A DNA stretch of 64,000 bases from Patescibacteria group bacterium (GCA_035510735.1 DATKGN010000010.1:27814-91813); one strand, 5' to 3'; shown: positions 8,389 through 60,432, counted from the stretch's first letter. Numbers and translations are program-made. The notes: generated from the sequence alone by a model not told the origin.

Positions 8389-8751
8389 GTGAAAACATTT
8401 CGTTTTCTTGATTTTCCCGTTTATAAGGAATCAAAACTCTTTCATCAATACTGCATTAAAATAACCACAGCATTACCTCGAACATATTGGGAATTAGGTG
8501 ATCAATTGCGACGTGCTGCACTCTCCATTTGTTTGAATATTTCAGAGGGATCAGCTAAATATTCTGACCGAGATTTTAAGCGTTTTATTGAAAACGCATT
8601 AGGGTCCGCAAATGAGTCATTCGCATGTCTTGATATCGCGATTAACCAGAAATTAATTACCCAAAAAACATTTCTAGAAGGGCAAACGCTAATAGAGAGC
8701 ATTACTAGGCAACTTGGAGGATTATCAAAAAAGCTTCGTGCGTTTTGTTAA
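8389..8751 (+). CDS. four-helix-bundle protein (23S rRNA intervening-sequence protein family)
   Basis: Family motif 'DQLRRAALSICLNISEGSAKYSDRDFKRFIENALGSANE'. Flanked by inverted 'ttgttaat' repeat blocks. Confidence 0.8.
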   Translation: MKTFRFLDFPVYKESKLFHQYCIKITTALPRTYWELGDQLRRAALSICLNISEGSAKYSDRDFKRFIENALGSANESFACLDIAINQKLITQKTFLEGQTLIESITRQLGGLSKKLRAFC

Positions 8752-17521: not shown

Positions 17522-17896
17522 ATGGAAAAGTCCGTATTTAACTTCGAGAGACTCACGGTATACCAACGTGCATTAGCATTCGCCTTGAACATTTATTCAC
17601 GTACACAAAAATGGCCGCGGGAACATCTTTTTGGTTTAACAGATCAACTAAGAAGAGCATCTTTATCCATTCCGTTAAATATCGCTGAGGGGTATAGTAG
17701 GTCGCGAAAAGACTTTCAGCATTTTTTGACTCTATCACGGGGATCCTGTTTTGAATGTGTTCCGATAATAAAACTAGCGGAGTCTCTCACTTTGCTTACT
17801 TCAAAAGAAGCTGATATGTTTTATAATGAATTAGAGGAAATTGCTAAGATGCTTAGTGGACTACGGAGTTCGCTATTGAAACAACCTAAACTCTAA
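17522..17896 (+). CDS. four-helix-bundle protein (23S rRNA IVS protein family)
   Basis: 'DQLRRASLSIPLNIAEGYSRSRKDFQHFLTLSRGSCFEC'. Bracketed by TAGAG-family repeats on both sides. Confidence 0.8.
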   Translation: MEKSVFNFERLTVYQRALAFALNIYSRTQKWPREHLFGLTDQLRRASLSIPLNIAEGYSRSRKDFQHFLTLSRGSCFECVPIIKLAESLTLLTSKEADMFYNELEEIAKMLSGLRSSLLKQPKL

Positions 17897-18791: not shown

Positions 18792-19322
18792 ATGCGTAAA
18801 CAATATTTACTTATACTCTGTGGACATCCATTTTCCGGCAAAACAACTCTCGCTCAAGCGATTGTAAATCAATATGATTTGGCATTTGTAAATCTTGACG
18901 AAATAAATCGAAGCCGAGGTGTTGGAATCAAGGGTAAGCCCATGACTCCTCGACTCTGGAAAGAAACGTACGAGTTGGGTTTTAAAGAAACAAAAAAACT
19001 ACTACAAGGTGGAAAATCAGTTGTATATGAAGGAGCCAACTTTACCGAACTACTTCGGTCAGAAATTCTAGCCATAACAAAACATACAAATATTATTCCA
19101 ATCATCATACACGTTGCCACAACCCAGAACGAATGCCATAAAAGATTACTACACAACCGGAAAACAAATAGTAGATACGACGTTAAAGACAAAGATTTTT
19201 CATTAGTATGTAATAACTTTCAGATACCGACTGAAAAAGAAGCAAAAGTACTTACGTATAATGCAGACTCTCCTCTGGGTTATTGGCTAATAGAGAATCT
19301 AGATGTTTGCTTTAAAAAATAA
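18792..19322 (+). CDS. P-loop NTPase/nucleotide kinase-like (AAA_33/zeta-toxin-like fold)
   Basis: Walker A 'LCGHPFSGKTTLA'. AT-rich by eye compared with its neighbours. Confidence 0.55.
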   Translation: MRKQYLLILCGHPFSGKTTLAQAIVNQYDLAFVNLDEINRSRGVGIKGKPMTPRLWKETYELGFKETKKLLQGGKSVVYEGANFTELLRSEILAITKHTNIIPIIIHVATTQNECHKRLLHNRKTNSRYDVKDKDFSLVCNNFQIPTEKEAKVLTYNADSPLGYWLIENLDVCFKK

Positions 19323-26282: not shown

Positions 26283-27468
26283 ACTGCCGACATCTGTTCT
26301 CGCATTAATCCTCGCCATCCTGGCGTTTAGTTTCCCTGTGGCGAAAGCCTATGCAGCACCGAATCTGCAATTTGATCAGACATCCGTCACTGCCGCCCAA
26401 AATGCAACGTTCCAGTTAAATATAACTATCAATGTTGATACAAATACGGTGATGGGAAGTGATGCGGTCGTCAACTACGCGGCCGCTGACTTACAGGTCA
26501 CGGATGTTTCAAGCGGGGGATTTTTTCCCCAATTTACAAAAGCAACAGATACTGCAGGTAAAATAGAAATTCACGGCTTTACCGGACAAAACGACAGCAG
26601 AACCGGCACCGGAACGTTCGCAACTATCACGTTTAAAGCGTTAAAAAACAGTGGCAGCAGTAATATCTCCTACACATGCACCGGTTCAGGAACGGACACT
26701 GATATCATTACTACAACAGGGCAAAATATCCTCGTTTGCACACAACTTAATAACGCAGGCATTAGTTACGCCTCAAGCGGAACGAGCTCGCCTACACCTA
26801 CGGCAACGACAGCGCCCGGGGTCACTGCGACGCCTACGCCAACCACCGCGCCATCAACGGGCGGCAATACGATCCCAACCTGTTCAGGACTAACGGCCAA
26901 CGTTACATCATCCGTCGGAACTCCACTGGCCGTAACGTTCACTTGCAGCGGAACTGATCCGGACGGCTATATGAACGGTGCACTCTTTACGTTCGGTGAC
27001 GGTACAAATCAGACAATAACGAAAAATGTCGGTAGTCCGGGCTCGATAGCAACCACGCACACCTATACAACCATCGGCGCACTCGGCGCCTCCTGTATCG
27101 TTCAGGATAATAATAATGCATGGTCAAACAGCGTAAGCGCGTGTACATCAGTTATTACCATTCAACCAACTCCATCGCCGACACCGCGGCAATCGATAGC
27201 CTATATCAGTGGCTACACAACTGGTCAGATAACCCCGACGCCTACTCCCGTTATCGTTTCAATTATTTCGGAGACTCCGGAGCCTACGTTTGAACTTACC
27301 CCAACGCCGACACCGGTATCTGAAGGAGAATCTAATGGCTCTGGTCGGCTGTGGTGGATAATTGGCGGAGTCATCGCAGTAGTCGTTGCGCTCATCCTCA
27401 TCCTGAGGCGCAAAAATCCCCCACCGAAAATTCCCCTAGCGAATGAAATCCCTATTGCCGAAGGATAG
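26272..27468 (+). CDS. membrane-anchored cohesin-like protein (cohesin-like + Ig/PKD-like + PT linker + C-terminal TM)
   Basis: Start overlaps the stop of the dockerin protein by 11 nt. Signal peptide. 'TAAQNATFQLNITINVDTNTVMGSDAVVNYAAADLQVTDVSSGGFF...GTFATITFKALKNSGSSNISY' is cohesin-like. C-terminal 'LWWIIGGVIAVVVALILILRRK' anchor. Confidence 0.5.
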   Translation: MQIKLPTSVLALILAILAFSFPVAKAYAAPNLQFDQTSVTAAQNATFQLNITINVDTNTVMGSDAVVNYAAADLQVTDVSSGGFFPQFTKATDTAGKIEIHGFTGQNDSRTGTGTFATITFKALKNSGSSNISYTCTGSGTDTDIITTTGQNILVCTQLNNAGISYASSGTSSPTPTATTAPGVTATPTPTTAPSTGGNTIPTCSGLTANVTSSVGTPLAVTFTCSGTDPDGYMNGALFTFGDGTNQTITKNVGSPGSIATTHTYTTIGALGASCIVQDNNNAWSNSVSACTSVITIQPTPSPTPRQSIAYISGYTTGQITPTPTPVIVSIISETPEPTFELTPTPTPVSEGESNGSGRLWWIIGGVIAVVVALILILRRKNPPPKIPLANEIPIAEG

Positions 27469-27832
27469 AACGGACACTCCTAACATCCTCTTCCATCTGA
27501 CGTGTGAGTGCGTCAACGGACGGAAATTTTATGATATCACGAAGCTTTCTCATCGGTTCGACCAATATCTGCGTCATATCGCTCATTGATAAATCCATCC
27601 CATCCAAACCTAATAAAAAAACTTCAAGATTGCGGCTGGCGTCATCAAACGTCGGTATCGGACCCCAGTGCATGGCTCCCCGAAATTTCGTACCGCTTAT
27701 CGTGACCCATGCAGCGTAGACACCTTCCGCAAGATCAAACCCCTCTGGAATTGCCATATTGACGGTAGGGTATCCCAAAAATCTTCCTCTTCCTTTTCCC
27801 TTTATTTGTTTCGTTACGAAATGCGTGGTCAC
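27452..27832 (-). CDS. riboflavin kinase (monofunctional, RibF C-terminal-type)
   Basis: 'KGKGRGRFLGYPTVNM' (GRGRxLGxPTAN flavokinase motif). Confidence 0.7.
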   Translation of the reverse strand: MTTHFVTKQIKGKGRGRFLGYPTVNMAIPEGFDLAEGVYAAWVTISGTKFRGAMHWGPIPTFDDASRNLEVFLLGLDGMDLSMSDMTQILVEPMRKLRDIIKFPSVDALTRQMEEDVRSVRSILRQ

Positions 27833-43140: not shown

Positions 43141-43473
43141 ATGGAAAAACCAATTCAAACAAATATAACAGACCGTGGACTTTTATCGGTGGATCTACTT
43201 ACATATATTTTAACGCGTCGTCCCGGTAGAGGTTTACATCAGCTCTTTGCTCCCGATATTCCGATCGGCGAGCAGCTGGCCCAAAGTTATTTGCTCACAG
43301 GTCCGGAGGGATTGCCAGAGCCCATGACAACAAAAGCTGAAGAACAGCGAAAAACTCTGAATATGACTCGTGAAGAGGCTAAAAATCGATTTGACGCACA
43401 GCTTGCTAAAGTCGGAATTACTCGAGATACATTTTTGGGATGGACGGAATCAGTGGCCAATAAAATACAATAA
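43141..43473 (+). CDS. hypothetical protein
   Basis: 110 aa, no motif. Confidence 0.35.
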   Translation: MEKPIQTNITDRGLLSVDLLTYILTRRPGRGLHQLFAPDIPIGEQLAQSYLLTGPEGLPEPMTTKAEEQRKTLNMTREEAKNRFDAQLAKVGITRDTFLGWTESVANKIQ

Positions 43474-43485
43474 TCATTTGCATAT

Positions 43486-44065
43486 GAAACCGATATTTCT
43501 ATTATTAAGTATCATCCTGCCAATCTATTCTCCGATCCTCTACATCAAGTCCATCCTTAGAGGCGGAGCAAGGCCGCACCGGACAACGCGGTTTGTCATC
43601 CTCATGACAACCACGCTGACGACGCTATCGCTCCTTGCGGCTCATGATCATGTGGCTCTTTGGTTGTCAGTAATATCAACCTTGCAGGCTATCGCTATAT
43701 TTTCCCTCAGTATCAAATACGGCATGGGTGGATGGGCAAAAAGCGATATTGTGTGCATGGGATTAGCCGTTATCGGAATCGTGGTGTGGCAAGTCACGAA
43801 AAATCCGGTCTATGGTTTATATTTTGGGATATTGGCCGATTTCATGGGGATGTTGCCTACTATTCTTAAAACGTATCGGTATCCTGAAACGGAAATGTGG
43901 CAATTCTTCGGCATTGACGCCCTGGCGGGTACGTTTAATTTTCTCGCATTGAGTTCATTTGCCCCGGCAACTTTCTCCTATCCGCTCTATCTGGTGTTTA
44001 TTAACGGGGTTATTGCAATCCTTGCAATACGAAAAAAAACAGACCGTTACCTACGCTATAACTGA
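43486..44065 (+). CDS. hypothetical polytopic membrane protein
   Basis: ATG 43486 'MKPIFLLLSIILPIYSPIL', about 5 TM helices. Confidence 0.45.
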
Positions 44066-44068
44066 AAG

Positions 44069-44890
44069 TTAATGTCCGTGGTGGCCTTCGTCTTTACGTT
44101 CTTTCGCTTCTTCATTCCTAAGGTCAGCTGCCATTTGATCTAAAAGCATCAACGGAGCTAATCTTATCGCCTCTTGAACAGCCTGAGCCAGTTGACCAAG
44201 ATGTTCAAGACGTGTACGGATCGGGAAGAGAATTGATTTGACCTCTTTATATCCCCTTGGCGCAAAAGCATTTAATTCATTGTCGGTAAATAGATCAGTT
44301 ACCTTACCTGTATTATAAAACCGTAATTTGGTAAGTGCCGGTGTTTTTGGATCATTAATCGCATATAAATATTCAAGCCGCGTAGCAGTGTCACGTTGGG
44401 TTTCTTTATCAACCCGGCTATGGCTCAAGCGAGCATAAACTTCTTGAAGATCGTCTTGATTGACGGGTTCCGGTTTGCCATGCGCGTTTTTTTCAAAACG
44501 GGGCGCCCATAAAAGACCGAATTTATGAAACATACCATCCATCATCGGATTATTAAAAATTGACCCCTTCACCGTGACGTCGCCCGATGACCCTCTGGTA
44601 AGAGTGACTATGCCATCATCCCATCGATACACCGAAGCCTTACTATGCCAGGCAAGTTGGACAATTGTCCTTTGATCTGATGTTCCAGAGGCAATGATGT
44701 GAAAGTCAGTCTGCTCAAACGGATCAGTAAGAGCCGCGACATATTGATTATGAACACCGGGAAGGTGACCGGTTGGCACTTCTACCCCTTTTATCGCGCG
44801 ATCTAAGACTAAATCAAATAAATCTGAAGGAGTTACTTCTTTATCTTCTATCTTACGTGCGTTACCGGGAAAAATGTATTCTGGTTGCAT
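44069..44890 (-). CDS. hypothetical protein
   Basis: 273 aa, no recognised motif. Confidence 0.45.
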   Translation of the reverse strand: MQPEYIFPGNARKIEDKEVTPSDLFDLVLDRAIKGVEVPTGHLPGVHNQYVAALTDPFEQTDFHIIASGTSDQRTIVQLAWHSKASVYRWDDGIVTLTRGSSGDVTVKGSIFNNPMMDGMFHKFGLLWAPRFEKNAHGKPEPVNQDDLQEVYARLSHSRVDKETQRDTATRLEYLYAINDPKTPALTKLRFYNTGKVTDLFTDNELNAFAPRGYKEVKSILFPIRTRLEHLGQLAQAVQEAIRLAPLMLLDQMAADLRNEEAKERKDEGHHGH

Positions 44891-44968: not shown

Positions 44969-45241
44969 TTATCGATATAACTGGTTATGTGTACCGAGAG
45001 CAACAAAGTATGCAAACGGACCATCGATAAGCGAATCAACTTCTCGATATATTGCCCTCCAATCGCCGGTAATATTAATGCTGCGACGCCCCATGTATTC
45101 CCCAACGAGTTTATGATTTCTTAAAAGCGGATGATAGGGGTTGGAAACAAACAAATCTAACCGGATACTAACTACCCGTTGGACATCATGGGGCGAATTC
45201 TGTAATTGTTTATCAAATTTCGGACTAAACTTAATCCTCAC
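44969..45241 (-). CDS. type II toxin, RelE/ParE family
   Basis: 'HKLVGEYMGRRSINITGDWRAIYRE' matches the RelE/ParE core. Confidence 0.65.
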   Translation of the reverse strand: MRIKFSPKFDKQLQNSPHDVQRVVSIRLDLFVSNPYHPLLRNHKLVGEYMGRRSINITGDWRAIYREVDSLIDGPFAYFVALGTHNQLYR

Positions 45242-45250
45242 CTTATCAGA

Positions 45251-45529
45251 TTATCGCTTGCGATGTAACCACGCAATGGCATCTTTCGCATTATCAAAGA
45301 CAGGCGATCCTTTATCGTCTTTCAAATCCTTGTCAGCCTTCTTGAGAATCCGCGCGAGATACGGCGTAGGTTCGTAGGATTCTGAAAACTCTATAGTCTT
45401 TGTTTTCACCAAACTGCGCAAATAGGCATTAACGAGTGAACTAAGAGTAAACCCCAAGGACTCTGCTACCTTGGCAGCTTCCCTTTTCACTTTCGGATCA
45501 GTACGGACATTCAGGATTGTGGTCCTCAT
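45251..45529 (-). CDS. type II antitoxin, RelB/DinJ (RHH) family
   Basis: 'MRTTILNVRTDPKVKREAAKVAESLGFTLSSLVNAYLRSLV'. Immediately upstream of the toxin. Confidence 0.6.
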   Translation of the reverse strand: MRTTILNVRTDPKVKREAAKVAESLGFTLSSLVNAYLRSLVKTKTIEFSESYEPTPYLARILKKADKDLKDDKGSPVFDNAKDAIAWLHRKR

Positions 45530-45569
45530 ATATACAAAGTATATACATTGTATATACACCTGTCAAGAG

Positions 45570-46430
45570 CTACAATGCAACCTTCTGGAGTTCTTCCGCC
45601 GCAGTCGCAGGGTCAACGACGTTGACGTTAAGGCCGGTGCCAAGCTCAAAGCCCGCACGATGGATGAATCGGGGTACGATCCGGATAAACCAGCTTTGCC
45701 CGTGGGAAATATAATAATTGTACATAAAGGGGTCTGTCTGACGATCCTTCGGCCGGATCACGGAATCTCGCCAGATATATTCAATCTTTTGGAGCGCGCG
45801 CTGGAGAACGCCTGCAAAATCGGTCAAGTGATTTTCCGGCAGGTCACCAAACATGTCTCCCTCCCCTTTTGGCGCAATCCATACTTCATAGGGCCATTGG
45901 GAAAAATCCGGACAATACATCACGAAATTGGTGTCTTCCTCGACCACATTATTGATGGGCTCCCTGGAGAGTGAATCGAGGTTAATCTGTTTCGGCACAA
46001 CAACAAGCTGTGAGTGGGGGTGGGCAAGACTTGCGCCTGCGTGGTAGCCGTGGTTACAAAATATAAGCACCTGGCCGTCATTCTCGTGCGCCCGAAAGCG
46101 ATCGCGGTATGCGGAGAGAATCCGCGTGACTTGATCTAGCGGCAGCTTATCCACATCATCCGTGTGACTTGTACTATGGATGAATACTTCATGCGTATCG
46201 GTGATCGGGAATTTATTGGGAACTACGCGGACTTGCCATCCCGGTCCATCCTTCTCGCCCGTGCCGATGCGGTATACCTCTGGCGGCGTTGACTTCTCAT
46301 TGCCCGCACAAAAAGGGCATCCCTTCACCGACACTACTGCGGGTTGGGCGGTTGAGTCAGGCCGTTTCGTACGCATGGGCGAGATAACCACCCACCGCTG
46401 CGTCTTCACATCAGGAACATATCTGGCCAT
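45570..46430 (-). CDS. galT: galactose-1-phosphate uridylyltransferase (HIT family)
   Basis: 'CPFCAGNE' zinc site and 'HGYHAGASLAHPHSQLVVVP' (HxHxQ). Confidence 0.8.
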   Translation of the reverse strand: MARYVPDVKTQRWVVISPMRTKRPDSTAQPAVVSVKGCPFCAGNEKSTPPEVYRIGTGEKDGPGWQVRVVPNKFPITDTHEVFIHSTSHTDDVDKLPLDQVTRILSAYRDRFRAHENDGQVLIFCNHGYHAGASLAHPHSQLVVVPKQINLDSLSREPINNVVEEDTNFVMYCPDFSQWPYEVWIAPKGEGDMFGDLPENHLTDFAGVLQRALQKIEYIWRDSVIRPKDRQTDPFMYNYYISHGQSWFIRIVPRFIHRAGFELGTGLNVNVVDPATAAEELQKVAL

Positions 46431-46470: not shown

Positions 46471-46848
46471 TCAAATGACAGACTTTCGTCTGGTTTTTTC
46501 TAAAATGGCACTTACAATTCGTAGGATTTCTGTACATTCACTAATATACGAATCACTTGTTGTATTTGTCAAAAGCTTTGAATCACGAACAAACGACAAC
46601 CAGTAGATTGTCTCCTTCGTTTCTTTCTTGACGATCATATATTTCGCAATAAAGTCTTTTTTTGACGAAGAAGCATCAGCCTCCTGATCGTTAGCACCCA
46701 TAGAAGTAAGTGAAGACGCTAACTGGGAAATAATAGGAGTTGCCTCAATAGATTTAGGAATTTTTTTTACTATATCTCGAAAACAATTGAGAATAAACAG
46801 ATATATTCTCCTGTGAATATCTTTATCAGTGTTGCGATATTTATTCAT
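46471..46848 (-). CDS. divergent four-helix-bundle (IVS-like) protein
   Basis: 'ISQLASSLTSMGANDQEADASSSKKDFIAKYMIVKKETKETIYWLSF' follows the family pattern (QL..A.S...N..EG...KDF......E....WL). Confidence 0.45.
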   Translation of the reverse strand: MNKYRNTDKDIHRRIYLFILNCFRDIVKKIPKSIEATPIISQLASSLTSMGANDQEADASSSKKDFIAKYMIVKKETKETIYWLSFVRDSKLLTNTTSDSYISECTEILRIVSAILEKTRRKSVI

Positions 46849-46938
46849 TAATTGATTCTATAATTGTTATAAATCATTTGTCGGATTTGCTTATTTGTAG
46901 TATTTGTAGTATTTATCGGATTTGTAATATTTATCGCA

Positions 46939-47910
46939 TTATGTGAATCGTGTAAGCAAACGAGCAACCTCGGTTTTCTTCTCTTTGGTGACCACAACCT
47001 CAACAAGTCCTTCGCGTCCTGTCGACGGCGGATGACCGTAATAGACGATACTGCCGATGGGTGCGTGAACAATAACAGGGAGGGTCAGAAGATCTTCTTC
47101 ACCGTCAATAACCAACACTATTCTTTTGCGTTCCCTAATGCCGCTCGCCCATGCTTCGACGGCTTCAATTGCCGCCTTTGCAATATAACCGGGCCCGCTT
47201 TTCACCCGGACAATGGTATATTCTTTGGGAAATTTGAACGATTCAAATGGTTGGTAGGGCTTCCGCTCGACCTGTAAATCGATAATGGCAAGCGCTGGTT
47301 TCACACCGCACAAAAACACGGTCTCCGTGGTCACGTCGCCAACCGCGATAACAACGTTATCACGATTTTTAAGAACCGCTTGTTTAATACCACTTGATTC
47401 CAATATTTTCCCCAAGGGGCGTTGTAACTCCGGTCGTAAACTATCAGGAAGAAGCAGTCTTCCTTCGCCGTCAATTTCCCCTTCGCGCATACGCGTTGAT
47501 GAGATGGTCCGCTGATCCTCGGCTGGGATAAGCTCAACCTCGACAATGGCAAGCGGCGGAAGCCCACGCTCATGCCGGAGCATATTAATCTCGTCGGCGG
47601 TAGTACGGTTATCACGGGTTACGGCGATGGCATCGATATCCTGGGCGATGATTGTCGACCCCCACCGGTTATCCAGTGGCACGATCATCGTCCGCTCGGC
47701 TACACCCTGATGCCTTAACCATGAAGTAAGTGCCTGATAGCGCTTACTGTGGGGCGTTATATCCTTACCCTTTTTAAACCGACGGATATAGGCTTCCGAT
47801 GTTAATCCGATCGTAACCCGTGCTCCTGATGCAAATGTTTTGGTAAGCAAATAGGTATGGCCCTTATGAAGCCCGTCAAATGTCCCGCCGACGACGATGT
47901 GTTTGTACAT
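46939..47910 (-). CDS. fused archaeal-type phosphopantetheine adenylyltransferase (N-terminal) and DUF359-type GTP-dependent dephospho-CoA kinase (C-terminal)
   Basis: N-terminal 'IVVGGTFDGLHKGHTYLL' (cytidylyltransferase HxGH). C-terminal 'VVIAVGDVTTETVFLCGVKPALAIIDLQVERKPY' matches the DUF359/DPCK core. Confidence 0.55.
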   Translation of the reverse strand: MYKHIVVGGTFDGLHKGHTYLLTKTFASGARVTIGLTSEAYIRRFKKGKDITPHSKRYQALTSWLRHQGVAERTMIVPLDNRWGSTIIAQDIDAIAVTRDNRTTADEINMLRHERGLPPLAIVEVELIPAEDQRTISSTRMREGEIDGEGRLLLPDSLRPELQRPLGKILESSGIKQAVLKNRDNVVIAVGDVTTETVFLCGVKPALAIIDLQVERKPYQPFESFKFPKEYTIVRVKSGPGYIAKAAIEAVEAWASGIRERKRIVLVIDGEEDLLTLPVIVHAPIGSIVYYGHPPSTGREGLVEVVVTKEKKTEVARLLTRFT

Positions 47911-47970: not shown

Positions 47971-48960
47971 ATGACGGTCATAAACGAACAAACTCATGCA
48001 TTCTATCAACAGGCAAATATGTATTTTCTCAATTTACCACCTGAGTTGAAAAATGCTCCTCTTTCGATCTTAACTGTGGATCTCGGGCGAAACAATGCTA
48101 TATCCGCCAAGTACATCGAACAGGCATTAGAGTCGCAAGATTTTGATTCTGTCCCCGAACAGTACCCAATTGGTGCCCGAATACTCGCCGAAACGGCACG
48201 GTTAATGGGATCCGCCTCACTGTCGACACCCGCCCAATTTCCGATCTCATTTAATAGGGAACGTGTGAGTAATTGGTCGGAGGGGATATTTAAACTGACA
48301 CTCTCATGGCAAAAAGAGGCATGGAAGAAGAATGGGAAAATAGTGAAGTGGGATCATAAGGTTGCATCCGCACGGTTGTATGAGCTGGGAATATCAGGAG
48401 ACCAGTACGGTCATCTCGTCATTCGTGGGGTTCAAAAACATCGTCTCAACCTCGTTTACCGACAGACACAGAATGCGCAAAATGTAGGACTTTTAGAAGA
48501 AAAGCGGGCAGGTGAAAATATTTGGAAATATATTAAAAAACATTCCGGTCGTAAGCCCGAACTATTCGGATTCTTAACTGCCGCACTCATCTTTGGCCCG
48601 CATGCCCGGGACGGAAAAATTGTCTTCCCGACGCCTGATTTCCAGCCAGAAATACGAAGTAGAGCAAACGAGATTAATGCCCTAAAAAAGAGCTCAGGAG
48701 ATTACTTAGACGATCATGCAAAAGACGAGATTAAAAAACGAGAAGATACTATCGCTATGATCCGTAAACGGACGGACTTTGCCGGTATGCTCGGCTCATT
48801 GGGTGTTCCAGTTGCAGAAGGTTCGCGTGAAGGCTATATGACGACAACACTCAACGATATTCTTAAGGGGATTGAGCGTTCCTGGCTAGACGATACGGGA
48901 GCGACGGTATATCCCCTCCGCACGATTCTCAATAAGCTCTATACCATGCAGATGCAATAA
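47971..48960 (+). CDS. hypothetical protein
   Basis: 329 aa, no motif. Confidence 0.45.
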   Translation: MTVINEQTHAFYQQANMYFLNLPPELKNAPLSILTVDLGRNNAISAKYIEQALESQDFDSVPEQYPIGARILAETARLMGSASLSTPAQFPISFNRERVSNWSEGIFKLTLSWQKEAWKKNGKIVKWDHKVASARLYELGISGDQYGHLVIRGVQKHRLNLVYRQTQNAQNVGLLEEKRAGENIWKYIKKHSGRKPELFGFLTAALIFGPHARDGKIVFPTPDFQPEIRSRANEINALKKSSGDYLDDHAKDEIKKREDTIAMIRKRTDFAGMLGSLGVPVAEGSREGYMTTTLNDILKGIERSWLDDTGATVYPLRTILNKLYTMQMQ

Positions 48961-50577: not shown

Positions 50578-51051
50578 ATGACGGAAAAGCTCCAGCAAAT
50601 TTCAGTGAAAGATATTGACTTCGCAAGGCGTAGATTGGACCCCTTTTTAAATTACGAACTGCAGCAAAAGGATCCTGAGAGGCAAATTACTGAAACGTTA
50701 GGGTATCACTTTGAGTCGTTAGGACACAAACTAACACATGAAGGCTATCCATGTGAACTTTCAGAATACAGGGAAGGTTTTATACATGCGATTAGAAATG
50801 TATCTCAGGCAATTGAAACAGATGAAACTCAAATTCAATTTGACAGCCTCATTGCGATAAATATAGTTCAGTTTGTAAATTACAATGATAAAGCGGAGAT
50901 CGGAATAATGCACACGACAGGATATATAGATGCGTTGGCATTTCTTAAAAAGTATTATGATATATCGAAGAGAAAAGATCTAACATTTACTGAAATGACC
51001 CACGTGCTCGTACAATTTCATAATGCCGCAATGGGTTATCAATTTAGTTAA
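50578..51051 (+). CDS. hypothetical protein
   Basis: 157 aa, no motif. Confidence 0.4.
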   Translation: MTEKLQQISVKDIDFARRRLDPFLNYELQQKDPERQITETLGYHFESLGHKLTHEGYPCELSEYREGFIHAIRNVSQAIETDETQIQFDSLIAINIVQFVNYNDKAEIGIMHTTGYIDALAFLKKYYDISKRKDLTFTEMTHVLVQFHNAAMGYQFS

Positions 51052-59964: not shown

Positions 59965-60330
59965 TTATCCGGTCGCGTGCACTCGAATCAGACCATTGAT
60001 GACTTGACCTCCTCGAATTATCAATGAATATAATGCATCAAACTCTTTTTCCTTTATCAAGCCCAGATCTTTTGCGAGTATGAGAAAATTTGCCACCTCA
60101 CTGTTCGACCCGCGTGCTTGATAGTAAAAGCGTAGCTTATCTGGATAATGGTATCGACCAAATCCTTCGGCAATATTCGCAGTTACAGAACTTGCTGCTC
60201 GCCTTAACTGATCAATGATACCAAACTTTTCCTCTTTCGGAAAGCCAACCGTCAATTTATAGATAGCGAGTACAATTTGATGGTTAATTTTCCACGCTTC
60301 CAAATCAGTAAATGAAGCAATTTTGCTCAT
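59965..60330 (-). CDS. four-helix-bundle protein (23S rRNA IVS protein family)
   Basis: 'IDQLRRAASSVTANIAEGFGRYHYPDKLRFYYQARGSNSEVANFL'. Start likely 'MSKIASFTDLEAWK' at 60330. Confidence 0.75.
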   Translation of the reverse strand: MSKIASFTDLEAWKINHQIVLAIYKLTVGFPKEEKFGIIDQLRRAASSVTANIAEGFGRYHYPDKLRFYYQARGSNSEVANFLILAKDLGLIKEKEFDALYSLIIRGGQVINGLIRVHATG

Positions 60331-60351
60331 ATTTATACTCGTCACTCGGAA

Positions 60352-60432
60352 CTCGTCATCCATCATCCGTATTGCGCTTCCCAGCTGTCAAATGTTGGAT
60401 GTCGGATGTCGAGTGTCGAATGTCGCCGCTAC
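60352..60432. repeat. degenerate heptanucleotide tandem repeats
   Basis: 'ttggatgtc ggatgtc gagtgtc gaatgtc gcc'. Confidence 0.6.

What the first reader, a model, noticed from the sequence alone, without database searches (positions are those of the whole stretch)
46939..47910. Archaeal-type CoA pathway enzymes fused: cytidylyltransferase-like PPAT + DUF359-type dephospho-CoA kinase
The N-terminus has 'GGTFDGLHKGH', the nucleotidyltransferase HxGH motif of archaeal PPAT. The C-terminal half ('VVIAVGDVTTE...PALAIIDLQVERKPY') matches the DUF359 family, shown in archaea to be the GTP-dependent dephospho-CoA kinase. Bacteria normally use unrelated CoaD and CoaE. A fused archaeal-type pair in a bacterial genome indicates lateral acquisition or an ancestral CPR trait, and it would complete CoA synthesis from 4'-phosphopantetheine.
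Basis: partly seen in the sequence, partly recalled or inferred. Interest (0 to 1): 0.6.

Follow-up and report, generated by a model that had tools for sequence, protein, structure and literature searches.

The report
Archaeal-type fused CoA synthase in CPR bacterium
A Patescibacteria (CPR) bacterium encodes one protein joining the archaeal versions of the last two coenzyme A enzymes (PPAT and the DUF359 kinase); this fusion is already published for archaea and turns out to be common in CPR bacteria, so it is real and tidy but not new in kind.

Summary
Window 46939-47910 (minus strand) is a 323-aa ORF. Residues 1-153 are an archaeal-type phosphopantetheine adenylyltransferase (PPAT; NCBIfam NF001985, 146 bits against a cut-off of 104). 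Residues 154-323 are a DUF359/arCOG04076 dephospho-CoA kinase (DPCK; Pfam 94 bits against 25; PDB 8jvc E 1e-24). All catalytic motifs are present and invariant in 62 homologs: HxGH, ISST, and the three Asp residues shown by mutagenesis in T. kodakarensis. The AlphaFold model (pLDDT 93) superposes on both archaeal crystal structures.

The host is bacterial: def-fmt, bacterial L11/L1/L10/L7-L12, NusG and SecE lie on the same contig, and NCBI labels the identical protein as Patescibacteria. The gene's composition is native to the window.

The fusion is not new in kind. It was the published clue that identified archaeal DPCK (Shimosaka 2019), and the exact protein is already deposited, named only "PPAT". 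It is widespread in Microgenomates-type CPR lineages (Gottesman-, Roizman-, Levybacteria) and also occurs in DPANN Micrarchaeota.

No canonical coaD, coaE or coaBC lies in the 64-kb window. Genome-wide absence could not be tested. I found no paper discussing the CPR occurrence. A tri-domain NMNAT-PPAT-DPCK variant exists in related CPR lineages.

The parts
46939..47910 (-). Complete CDS (323 aa plus stop) of the bifunctional archaeal-type PPAT/DPCK
   Evidence: ORF list. It is identical to database protein P0001, named 'pantetheine-phosphate adenylyltransferase [Patescibacteria group bacterium]'. The N-terminus MYKHIVVGG matches the homolog consensus MYxHVxVGG, so the start codon is right.
47452..47910 (-). 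PPAT domain (residues 1-153), archaeal/eukaryal-type nucleotidyltransferase
   Evidence: NF001985 at 146.2 bits against cut-off 104 over residues 2-153. Pfam PF01467. PDB 3do8 at E 3.9e-16. Foldseek TM 0.80-0.86 to 3do8. 43% identity to a stand-alone Methanoregulaceae PPAT.
47857..47868 (-). HxGH motif (H15-K-G-H18) of the adenylyltransferase active site
   Evidence: Read directly from the sequence. H15, G17 and H18 are invariant in 62 homologs.
47494..47505 (-). ISST motif (I136-S-S-T139), second nucleotidyltransferase signature
   Evidence: I136, S137, S138 and R140 are at least 90% conserved. The motif aligns to ISSTR of archaeal PPATs.
47446..47463 (-). Domain junction (G150-RLLL-P155): the PPAT C-terminus abuts the DPCK N-terminus with no linker
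   Evidence: Stand-alone PPAT ends ...EIDEHGRLLHP, and stand-alone DPCKs start M..LPDxLRxEL..PLG. The G150-to-P155 spacing is identical in all 62 fusion homologs.
46942..47451 (-). DPCK domain (residues 154-323), DUF359/arCOG04076 family
   Evidence: PF04019 at 94 bits against GA 25. NF041125 at 107 bits, E 7e-31. PDB 8jvc at E 1.2e-24. Foldseek TM 0.81-0.88 to 8jvc/8jvg/8jvf.
47335..47337 (-). Asp192, equivalent to catalytic Asp48 of T. kodakarensis DPCK
   Evidence: Pairwise mapping. Invariant in 62 homologs. The D48A phenotype is reported in PMC6650551.
47278..47280 (-). Asp211, equivalent to catalytic Asp67
47092..47094 (-). Asp273 (in GEEDL), equivalent to Asp125

Best explanation
The gene encodes a single-chain, archaeal-type 'CoA synthase' in a Patescibacteria (CPR) bacterium. 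The N-terminal domain would adenylylate 4'-phosphopantetheine with ATP to give dephospho-CoA. The directly abutting C-terminal DUF359 domain would phosphorylate its 3'-OH to give CoA. By analogy with the T. kodakarensis enzyme the phosphate donor is probably GTP.

Shown here: family membership of both halves, intact and strongly conserved catalytic residues, correct folds, a bacterial host, native composition, and wide distribution of the same fusion in CPR and DPANN.

Inferred: the two enzymatic activities, GTP as the donor, and that the cell obtains 4'-phosphopantetheine (or a precursor) from outside. No upstream CoA enzyme lies in the window, and small CPR genomes generally lack cofactor pathways (the latter is my own knowledge).
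For: Domain assignments pass curated cut-offs. Sequence hits reach the solved archaeal PPAT and the GTP-dependent DPCK. The AF2 model has pLDDT 93.3, with TM 0.8-0.88 to 8jvc and 3do8. D192, D211 and D273 correspond to TK1697 D48, D67 and D125, which mutagenesis showed to matter. HxGH, ISST and the three Asp are invariant or near-invariant in 62 homologs of 44-68% identity, which means purifying selection on both active sites. The junction length is fixed.

The same PPAT + arCOG04076 fusion was the basis for the experimental discovery of DPCK. The bacterial context includes def, fmt, L11/L1/L10/L12, NusG and SecE. Synteny with a 1.22-Mb relative contig is conserved. GC, GC3 and codon usage are typical of the window. 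The window contains no canonical CoaD, CoaE or CoaBC.
Against: No biochemical data exist for any CPR member. The Thermococcales-specific equivalog models are far below their cut-offs (107 against 300 for DPCK; 87 against 290 for PPAT), so the assignment rests on subfamily and Pfam-level membership plus residues. GTP specificity could not be checked because the structure paper was not in the library. Only 64 kb of the genome was examined, so canonical CoaD/CoaE may exist elsewhere and the source of 4'-phosphopantetheine is unknown.
Confidence: 0.88

Rival explanations
1. The two-domain protein is real, but it is redundant or specialised. The genome would also carry canonical bacterial CoaD and CoaE elsewhere, so the archaeal-type fusion would be an accessory salvage enzyme rather than the organism's CoA-finishing route.
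For: Only 64 kb of the genome could be inspected. Whole-genome content of this MAG or of relatives was not retrievable with the tools.
Against: No CoaD, CoaE or CoaBC signal appears in the window. The only P-loop candidate, ORF 18792-19322, is AAA_33/KTI12 with no CoaE hit. Strong conservation of both active sites across hundreds of CPR clusters suggests an essential role.
Confidence: 0.15
2. The N-terminal nucleotidyltransferase domain is not PPAT but a different adenylyltransferase of the same superfamily, for example an archaeal RibL-type FMN adenylyltransferase or an NMNAT. The fusion would then couple another cofactor step to the kinase.
For: PF01467 is a broad superfamily. There are weak hits to FAD_syn (E 0.0012) and RibF/NMNAT models. 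The window has a stand-alone riboflavin kinase with no adjacent FMN adenylyltransferase.
Against: The PPAT subfamily model NF001985 scores 146 bits, above its cut-off, while FAD-synthetase and NMNAT models score 11-19 bits. The best solved relatives by sequence and fold are PPATs. In tri-domain relatives a distinct NMNAT domain sits in front of this same PPAT domain, so the two are different entities. Fusion to DPCK makes pathway sense only for PPAT.
Confidence: 0.04
3. The gene is archaeal DNA that was mis-assembled or mis-binned into a bacterial contig, or it is a very recent transfer.
For: Both halves belong to families otherwise typical of archaea. DPANN archaea, which co-occur with CPR, carry the same fusion.
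Against: The gene lies in the middle of a contig with bacterial hallmark genes on both sides. The same gene order (pentose-phosphate operon, fusion, GalT-like gene, rplL-J-A-K, nusG, secE) recurs in a 63%-identical relative on a 1.22-Mb contig and in L003. GC z-score is 1.1, GC3 z-score is 0.5, and codon usage ranks 16 of 47. The window's clade of 28 representatives, including Gottesmanbacteria, has 98% bootstrap and contains no archaeal anchor.
Confidence: 0.02

Closest known systems
PPAT-arCOG04076 (DUF359) fusion proteins of uncultured archaea (e.g. AIF21550.1; Shimosaka et al. 2019, PMC6650551) and of DPANN Micrarchaeota (P0393, P0404, P0387)
   Same: The two domains and their order (PPAT N-terminal, DPCK C-terminal) are the same, and the size is similar (313-343 aa). 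Both Pfam domains are present. The archaeal fusions are 33-43% identical to CPR fusions.
   Different: The host here is a bacterium (Patescibacteria). The window protein belongs to a separate clade with 98% bootstrap that contains only CPR-labelled anchors.
Thermococcus kodakarensis GTP-dependent dephospho-CoA kinase TK1697 (PDB 8jvc/8jvf/8jvg; EC 2.7.1.237)
   Same: The C-terminal half shares 43% identity over 152 aligned residues, has the same fold (TM 0.81-0.88), and conserves all three functionally tested Asp residues.
   Different: TK1697 is a stand-alone protein of about 177 aa. The window protein falls below the Thermococcales equivalog cut-off (107 against 300 bits). Its nucleotide donor is untested.
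Archaeal PPAT (A. fulgidus 3do8; T. kodakarensis TK2128; NCBIfam NF001985)
   Same: The N-terminal half scores above the NF001985 cut-off, carries HxGH and ISSTR motifs, superposes on 3do8 at TM 0.80-0.86, and is 43% identical to a Methanoregulaceae PPAT.
   Different: Here it is fused, with no linker, to the next enzyme of the pathway.
Eukaryotic bifunctional CoA synthase (COASY)
   Same: It carries the same two activities in the same order on one chain, and its PPAT domain is of the same archaeal/eukaryal type (own knowledge; the bifunctional enzyme is also mentioned in PMC6650551).
   Different: The COASY kinase domain is a P-loop CoaE homolog, which is unrelated to the Rossmann-like DUF359 domain used here. 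The two fusions are therefore analogous.
Canonical bacterial CoaD and CoaE
   Same: They catalyse the same two reactions. CoaD shares the nucleotidyltransferase fold (Foldseek TM about 0.6, E about 1e-5).
   Different: TIGR01510 (CoaD) scores only 13 bits against a cut-off of 103. There is no P-loop CoaE domain. E. coli CoaE, CoaD and Dfp find nothing else in the window.

Membership tests
Archaeal/eukaryal-type PPAT (NCBIfam NF001985 / COG1019, EC 2.7.7.3) | Whole-protein score above the curated subfamily cut-off | tested here: met
   146.2 bits against cut-off 104, residues 2-153
Archaeal/eukaryal-type PPAT (NCBIfam NF001985 / COG1019, EC 2.7.7.3) | Nucleotidyltransferase signatures: GxFxxxHxGH near the N-terminus and ISSTxxR near the C-terminus | tested here: met
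   GGTFDGLHKGH at residues 8-18 and ISSTR at 136-140, invariant or near-invariant in 62 homologs
Archaeal/eukaryal-type PPAT (NCBIfam NF001985 / COG1019, EC 2.7.7.3) | Fold of a solved archaeal PPAT | tested here: met
   Foldseek against 3do8: TM 0.80-0.86, rmsd 2.1-2.2 A, from a model with pLDDT 93
Archaeal/eukaryal-type PPAT (NCBIfam NF001985 / COG1019, EC 2.7.7.3) | Adenylyl transfer from ATP to 4'-phosphopantetheine | not testable with these tools
   Needs an enzyme assay
DUF359/arCOG04076 dephospho-CoA kinase (Pfam PF04019, EC 2.7.1.237) | Pfam PF04019 above the gathering threshold over the full model | tested here: met
   94 bits against 25, model positions 1-125 of 126
DUF359/arCOG04076 dephospho-CoA kinase (Pfam PF04019, EC 2.7.1.237) | Three conserved acidic residues (TK1697 Asp48, Asp67, Asp125) shown by mutagenesis to matter | tested here: met
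   D192, D211 and D273 align to them and are invariant in 62 homologs
DUF359/arCOG04076 dephospho-CoA kinase (Pfam PF04019, EC 2.7.1.237) | Fold of the solved T. kodakarensis DPCK | tested here: met
   Foldseek against 8jvc/8jvg/8jvf: E 1e-15 to 1e-11, TM 0.81-0.88
DUF359/arCOG04076 dephospho-CoA kinase (Pfam PF04019, EC 2.7.1.237) | NCBIfam equivalog NF041125 (Thermococcales DPCK) cut-off | tested here: not met
   107 bits against 300. The model is order-specific, so this excludes Thermococcales-level orthology, not family membership.
DUF359/arCOG04076 dephospho-CoA kinase (Pfam PF04019, EC 2.7.1.237) | GTP as the preferred phosphate donor | not testable with these tools
   The structure paper with GTP-contact residues is not in the library. 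An assay is needed.
Canonical bacterial CoaD (TIGR01510) / CoaE (P-loop, PF01121) | Score above the TIGR01510 cut-off, or presence of a CoaE P-loop domain | tested here: not met
   TIGR01510 scores 13.2 bits against 103.3. No CoaE family hit appears. E. coli CoaE finds nothing in this ORF.

The most novel reading that the evidence does not exclude
Microgenomates-type CPR bacteria as a group may have replaced the bacterial CoaD/CoaE pair with an archaeal-type, probably GTP-dependent, single-chain CoA synthase exchanged with DPANN archaea. DUF359, described as archaea-specific and part of the pan-archaeal core, would then be a shared CPR/DPANN trait. Some CPR lineages (Roizmanbacteria and others) appear to have extended it into a trifunctional NMNAT-PPAT-DPCK protein that finishes both NAD and CoA from scavenged precursors. 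I found neither point in the searchable literature.
Probability: 0.4. Interest if true: 0.5.

Novelty: new member of a known kind. Interest (0 to 1): 0.3.

Why it matters
This corrects an under-annotation. Public records name these CPR proteins only as PPAT, so metabolic reconstructions would score the last CoA step as missing. It suggests that many Microgenomates-type CPR bacteria can make CoA from 4'-phosphopantetheine with one archaeal-type protein, which bears on what they must scavenge from hosts or the environment. It also adds a clean case of a supposedly archaea-specific core enzyme shared between CPR bacteria and DPANN archaea. The enzyme chemistry and the fusion architecture themselves are already established.

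Tried and rejected
1. The genome-contig scan with the single protein reached only three close relatives plus one archaeal stand-alone PPAT. The relatives' record titles say 'uncultured Gammaproteobacteria', which conflicts with all other evidence and was treated as a placeholder label.

2. The listing of cluster members on 10 NCBI-sourced relatives returned no names.

3. Context look-ups for P0236, P0202, P0213, P0239 and P0209 hit contigs of only 1.4-3.8 kb, which gave no taxonomic information.

4. Ten literature searches found no paper linking CPR/Patescibacteria to DUF359 or archaeal-type PPAT. The 8jvc structure paper is not in the library, so GTP-contact residues could not be mapped.

5. 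The DPCK-domain-only NJ tree had almost no deep support. I therefore make no claim on whether all fusions are monophyletic or on the direction of transfer between CPR and DPANN.

6. ORF 18792-19322 (P-loop) was considered as a hidden CoaE. It is AAA_33/KTI12-like with no CoaE hit, so this was rejected.

7. A tblastn hit of E. coli CoaE at 2273-2398 (E 0.001, 47 aa) lies inside an O-antigen-ligase/TPR membrane protein and was judged spurious.

8. The promoter/terminator scan gave no convincing minus-strand promoter in the 60-bp gap upstream of the gene.

9. No gene adjacent to the fusion is CoA-related.

Full report
OBSERVATION. Window 46939-47910 holds a 323-aa ATG-initiated ORF on the minus strand. 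The N-terminus matches the consensus of 62 homologs (MYxHVxVGGTFDGLHKGH), so the start codon is right.

DOMAIN IDENTITY, SEQUENCE. Pfam finds CTP_transf_like over residues 6-143 (46.6 bits, GA 21) and DUF359 over residues 194-322 (94 bits, GA 25, full model length). NCBIfam places residues 2-153 in the archaeal-type PPAT subfamily NF001985 at 146.2 bits, above its cut-off of 104. Residues 153-321 hit the GTP-dependent DPCK model NF041125 at 107 bits (E 7e-31), below that Thermococcales-specific equivalog's cut-off of 300. The bacterial CoaD model TIGR01510 scores only 13 bits against 103. Against PDB sequences, the C-terminal half matches T. kodakarensis GTP-dependent DPCK 8jvc (E 1.2e-24) and the N-terminal half matches A. 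fulgidus PPAT 3do8 (E 3.9e-16).

DOMAIN IDENTITY, STRUCTURE. An AlphaFold2 model built on a 62-sequence alignment is confident (mean pLDDT 93.3, pTM 0.71). Foldseek superposes its C-terminal domain on 8jvc/8jvg/8jvf (TM 0.81-0.88) and its N-terminal domain on 3do8 (TM 0.80-0.86). Bacterial CoaD structures follow at TM about 0.6.

CATALYTIC COMPETENCE. Shimosaka et al. 2019 (PMC6650551) showed that TK1697 is a GTP-dependent DPCK. They also showed that D48A and D67A, and less so D125A, impair complementation. Pairwise mapping puts these residues on D192, D211 and D273 of the window protein. In an alignment of 62 fusion homologs at 44-68% identity, the invariant columns include G9-T-F-D12, H15, G17, H18, D192, D211, G270, E271 and D273. 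I136, S137, S138 and R140 are at least 90% conserved. Both active sites are thus under purifying selection.

THE JUNCTION. The join between the domains is seamless. A stand-alone Methanoregulaceae PPAT (L004) ends ...EIDEHGRLLHP, and stand-alone DPCKs begin M..LPDxLRxEL..PLG. The fusion reads ...GEIDGEGRLLLPDSLRPELQRPLG, and the G150-to-P155 spacing is identical in all 62 homologs.

HOST AND CONTEXT. The identical protein (P0001) is in NCBI as 'MAG TPA: pantetheine-phosphate adenylyltransferase [Patescibacteria group bacterium]'. The window carries several bacterial hallmarks:
- Peptide deformylase and Met-tRNA formyltransferase.
- SecE, NusG, L11, L1, L10 and L7/L12 at 31-39 kb (the same block is Pfam-annotated in relative L012).
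- A pentose-phosphate operon at 51-62 kb.

The order pentose-phosphate operon, fusion, GalT/HIT-like gene, rplL-J-A-K, nusG, secE recurs around a 63%-identical homolog on a 1.22-Mb contig and in L003. The gene's GC (z 1.1), GC3 (z 0.5) and codon usage (rank 16 of 47) are ordinary for the window. A chimeric contig or a very recent transfer is therefore unlikely.

NEIGHBOURS. The immediate neighbours are not CoA-related. They are a 23S_rRNA_IVP four-helix-bundle gene, a GalT/HIT-like gene, a YafQ/RelB toxin-antitoxin pair, an unknown 329-aa ORF and a PMT_2-type glycosyltransferase.

OTHER CoA GENES. E. coli CoaE, CoaD and Dfp, searched against all six-frame ORFs with phmmer --max and tblastn, gave nothing significant except the fusion's own PPAT half (E 0.04-0.11). 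The one P-loop ORF (18792-19322) is AAA_33/KTI12-like. Pfam annotation of 40 window ORFs found no PanK, CoaBC, CoaD or CoaE. This covers only 64 kb, and genome-wide absence is untested.

DISTRIBUTION. The first homology search returned 503 hits, and nearly all of the best 120 carry both domains at 43-100% identity. Against 1.84 billion 50%-identity representatives, the DPCK half finds 1,971 proteins at E<=1e-3 and 855 at E<=1e-10. Of the best 150, about 100 are PPAT+DPCK fusions and about 37 are short or stand-alone forms. Organism names, where sources give them, are Candidatus Gottesmanbacteria, Roizmanbacteria, Levybacteria, 'Microgenomates group' and 'Patescibacteria group'. On the archaeal side the names are Candidatus Micrarchaeia and Micrarchaeota (P0393, P0404). 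The archaeal assignment is corroborated by context. P0387 lies near an RNA polymerase Rpb6-type subunit, Ribosomal_60s (P1) and an RL10P-insert L10, and it is syntenic with the Micrarchaeia contig.

PHYLOGENY (ROUGH). In a bootstrapped NJ tree of 103 full-length fusions (326 columns), the window protein falls in a clade of 28 representatives that includes Gottesmanbacteria. That clade is separated from all other fusions with 98% support. The other side holds Roizman-, Levy- and other Microgenomates sequences and the DPANN fusions, whose position is unresolved. The DPCK-only tree has no deep support. The fusion is therefore long-established and widespread in this part of the CPR and is shared with DPANN archaea. 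The direction of transfer is not determined.

PRIOR KNOWLEDGE. The fusion of arCOG04076/DUF359 to PPAT in uncultured archaea was the explicit clue that led to the identification of archaeal DPCK (PMC6650551; also PMC6393860). That paper reports that PSI-BLAST retrieved only archaeal members. None of ten full-text searches found a paper discussing this enzyme in CPR bacteria. NCBI names these CPR proteins only 'pantetheine-phosphate adenylyltransferase', while JGI names vary. The kinase half is thus under-annotated.

MECHANISM (INFERRED). 4'-phosphopantetheine + ATP gives dephospho-CoA + PPi on the N-terminal domain. Dephospho-CoA + GTP (by homology; untested) gives CoA + GDP on the C-terminal domain. 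The rigid, linker-free junction is compatible with hand-over between the sites, but this is speculation. No upstream enzyme was seen, so the organism probably depends on imported 4'-phosphopantetheine, pantetheine or similar. This last point is inference from the window and from general knowledge of CPR genome reduction.

VERDICT. The observation and its core interpretation are correct. The finding is a bacterial (CPR) member of a known, experimentally anchored fusion family. The exact sequence is already public. Its interest lies in the annotation gap and in the CPR/DPANN sharing of an 'archaeal' core enzyme, not in new biochemistry.

SEEN IN PASSING. A tri-domain archaeal-type NMNAT + PPAT + DPCK protein of about 500 aa is common in Roizmanbacteria-like CPR. 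It accounts for 66 of 120 hits to P0225 and forms a 100%-bootstrap clade. I could not find it described.

Noticed in passing
Related proteins P0360, P0337, P0279, P0298, P0310, P0314, P0384 (not in the window); L013:1279-1758: Many CPR relatives (Roizmanbacteria, 'Patescibacteria group') encode a tri-domain protein of about 500 aa: an archaeal-type NMN adenylyltransferase (NF002243, 116-118 bits, just under cut-off 127), then PPAT, then DPCK. These make up 66 of the 120 best hits to P0225 and form a 100%-bootstrap clade. In L013 the NMNAT is instead a separate gene 3 kb from a two-domain fusion. The window itself has no NMNAT.
   Followed up: partly
window 45570-46430 (-); L012:10997-11893: A GalT/HIT-like gene (weak hits to DUF4921, GalP_UDP_transf and Ap4A_phos_N, with an HPHSQ motif) lies immediately downstream of the fusion in the 1.22-Mb relative. 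In the window it is separated from the fusion only by an inserted 23S_rRNA_IVP gene. This is a conserved neighbour of unknown relevance.
   Followed up: partly
window 27452-27832 (-): A stand-alone riboflavin kinase (Flavokinase, 87.8 bits, 126 aa) has no fused FAD-synthetase domain, unlike typical bacterial RibF. This is another sign of cofactor finishing or salvage with split or rearranged enzymes.
   Followed up: no
L001, L002, L003 (record titles): Close relatives at 59-89% identity come from MAGs titled 'uncultured Gammaproteobacteria bacterium' (binchicken co-assemblies). Their gene content and synteny match the Patescibacteria window, so the titles look like wrong or placeholder taxonomy.
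   Followed up: partly
window 46471-46848 (-), and probably 8389-8751 (+), 17522-17896 (+), 59965-60366 (-): There are several small 'four-helix-bundle' 23S_rRNA_IVP-type genes scattered through the window. One is inserted between the fusion and its usual downstream neighbour. Only 46471-46848 was confirmed by Pfam (55 bits); the others were judged from their N-terminal sequences.
   Followed up: partly
window 44969-45559 (-): A YafQ-type toxin (34 bits) and a RelB-type antitoxin (28.8 bits) form a pair just downstream of the GalT-like gene.
   Followed up: no
window 46890-46935: A short AT-rich imperfect tandem repeat (ATTTGTAGT repeated, then ATTTGTAAT) lies in the 90-bp gap right after the fusion's stop codon. 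No terminator-like hairpin was called there.
   Followed up: no
window 47971-48960 (+), 44069-44890 (-), 43370-44065 (+), 50578-51051 (+): Several ORFs around the fusion have no Pfam match. The 329-aa ORF divergent from the fusion is conserved next to it in short contigs carrying the identical protein (L005/L006).
   Followed up: no
window 18792-19322 (+): A small P-loop protein (AAA_33, 51 bits; KTI12-like, 40 bits) of unknown substrate. It was checked as a possible CoaE and found not to be one.
   Followed up: yes
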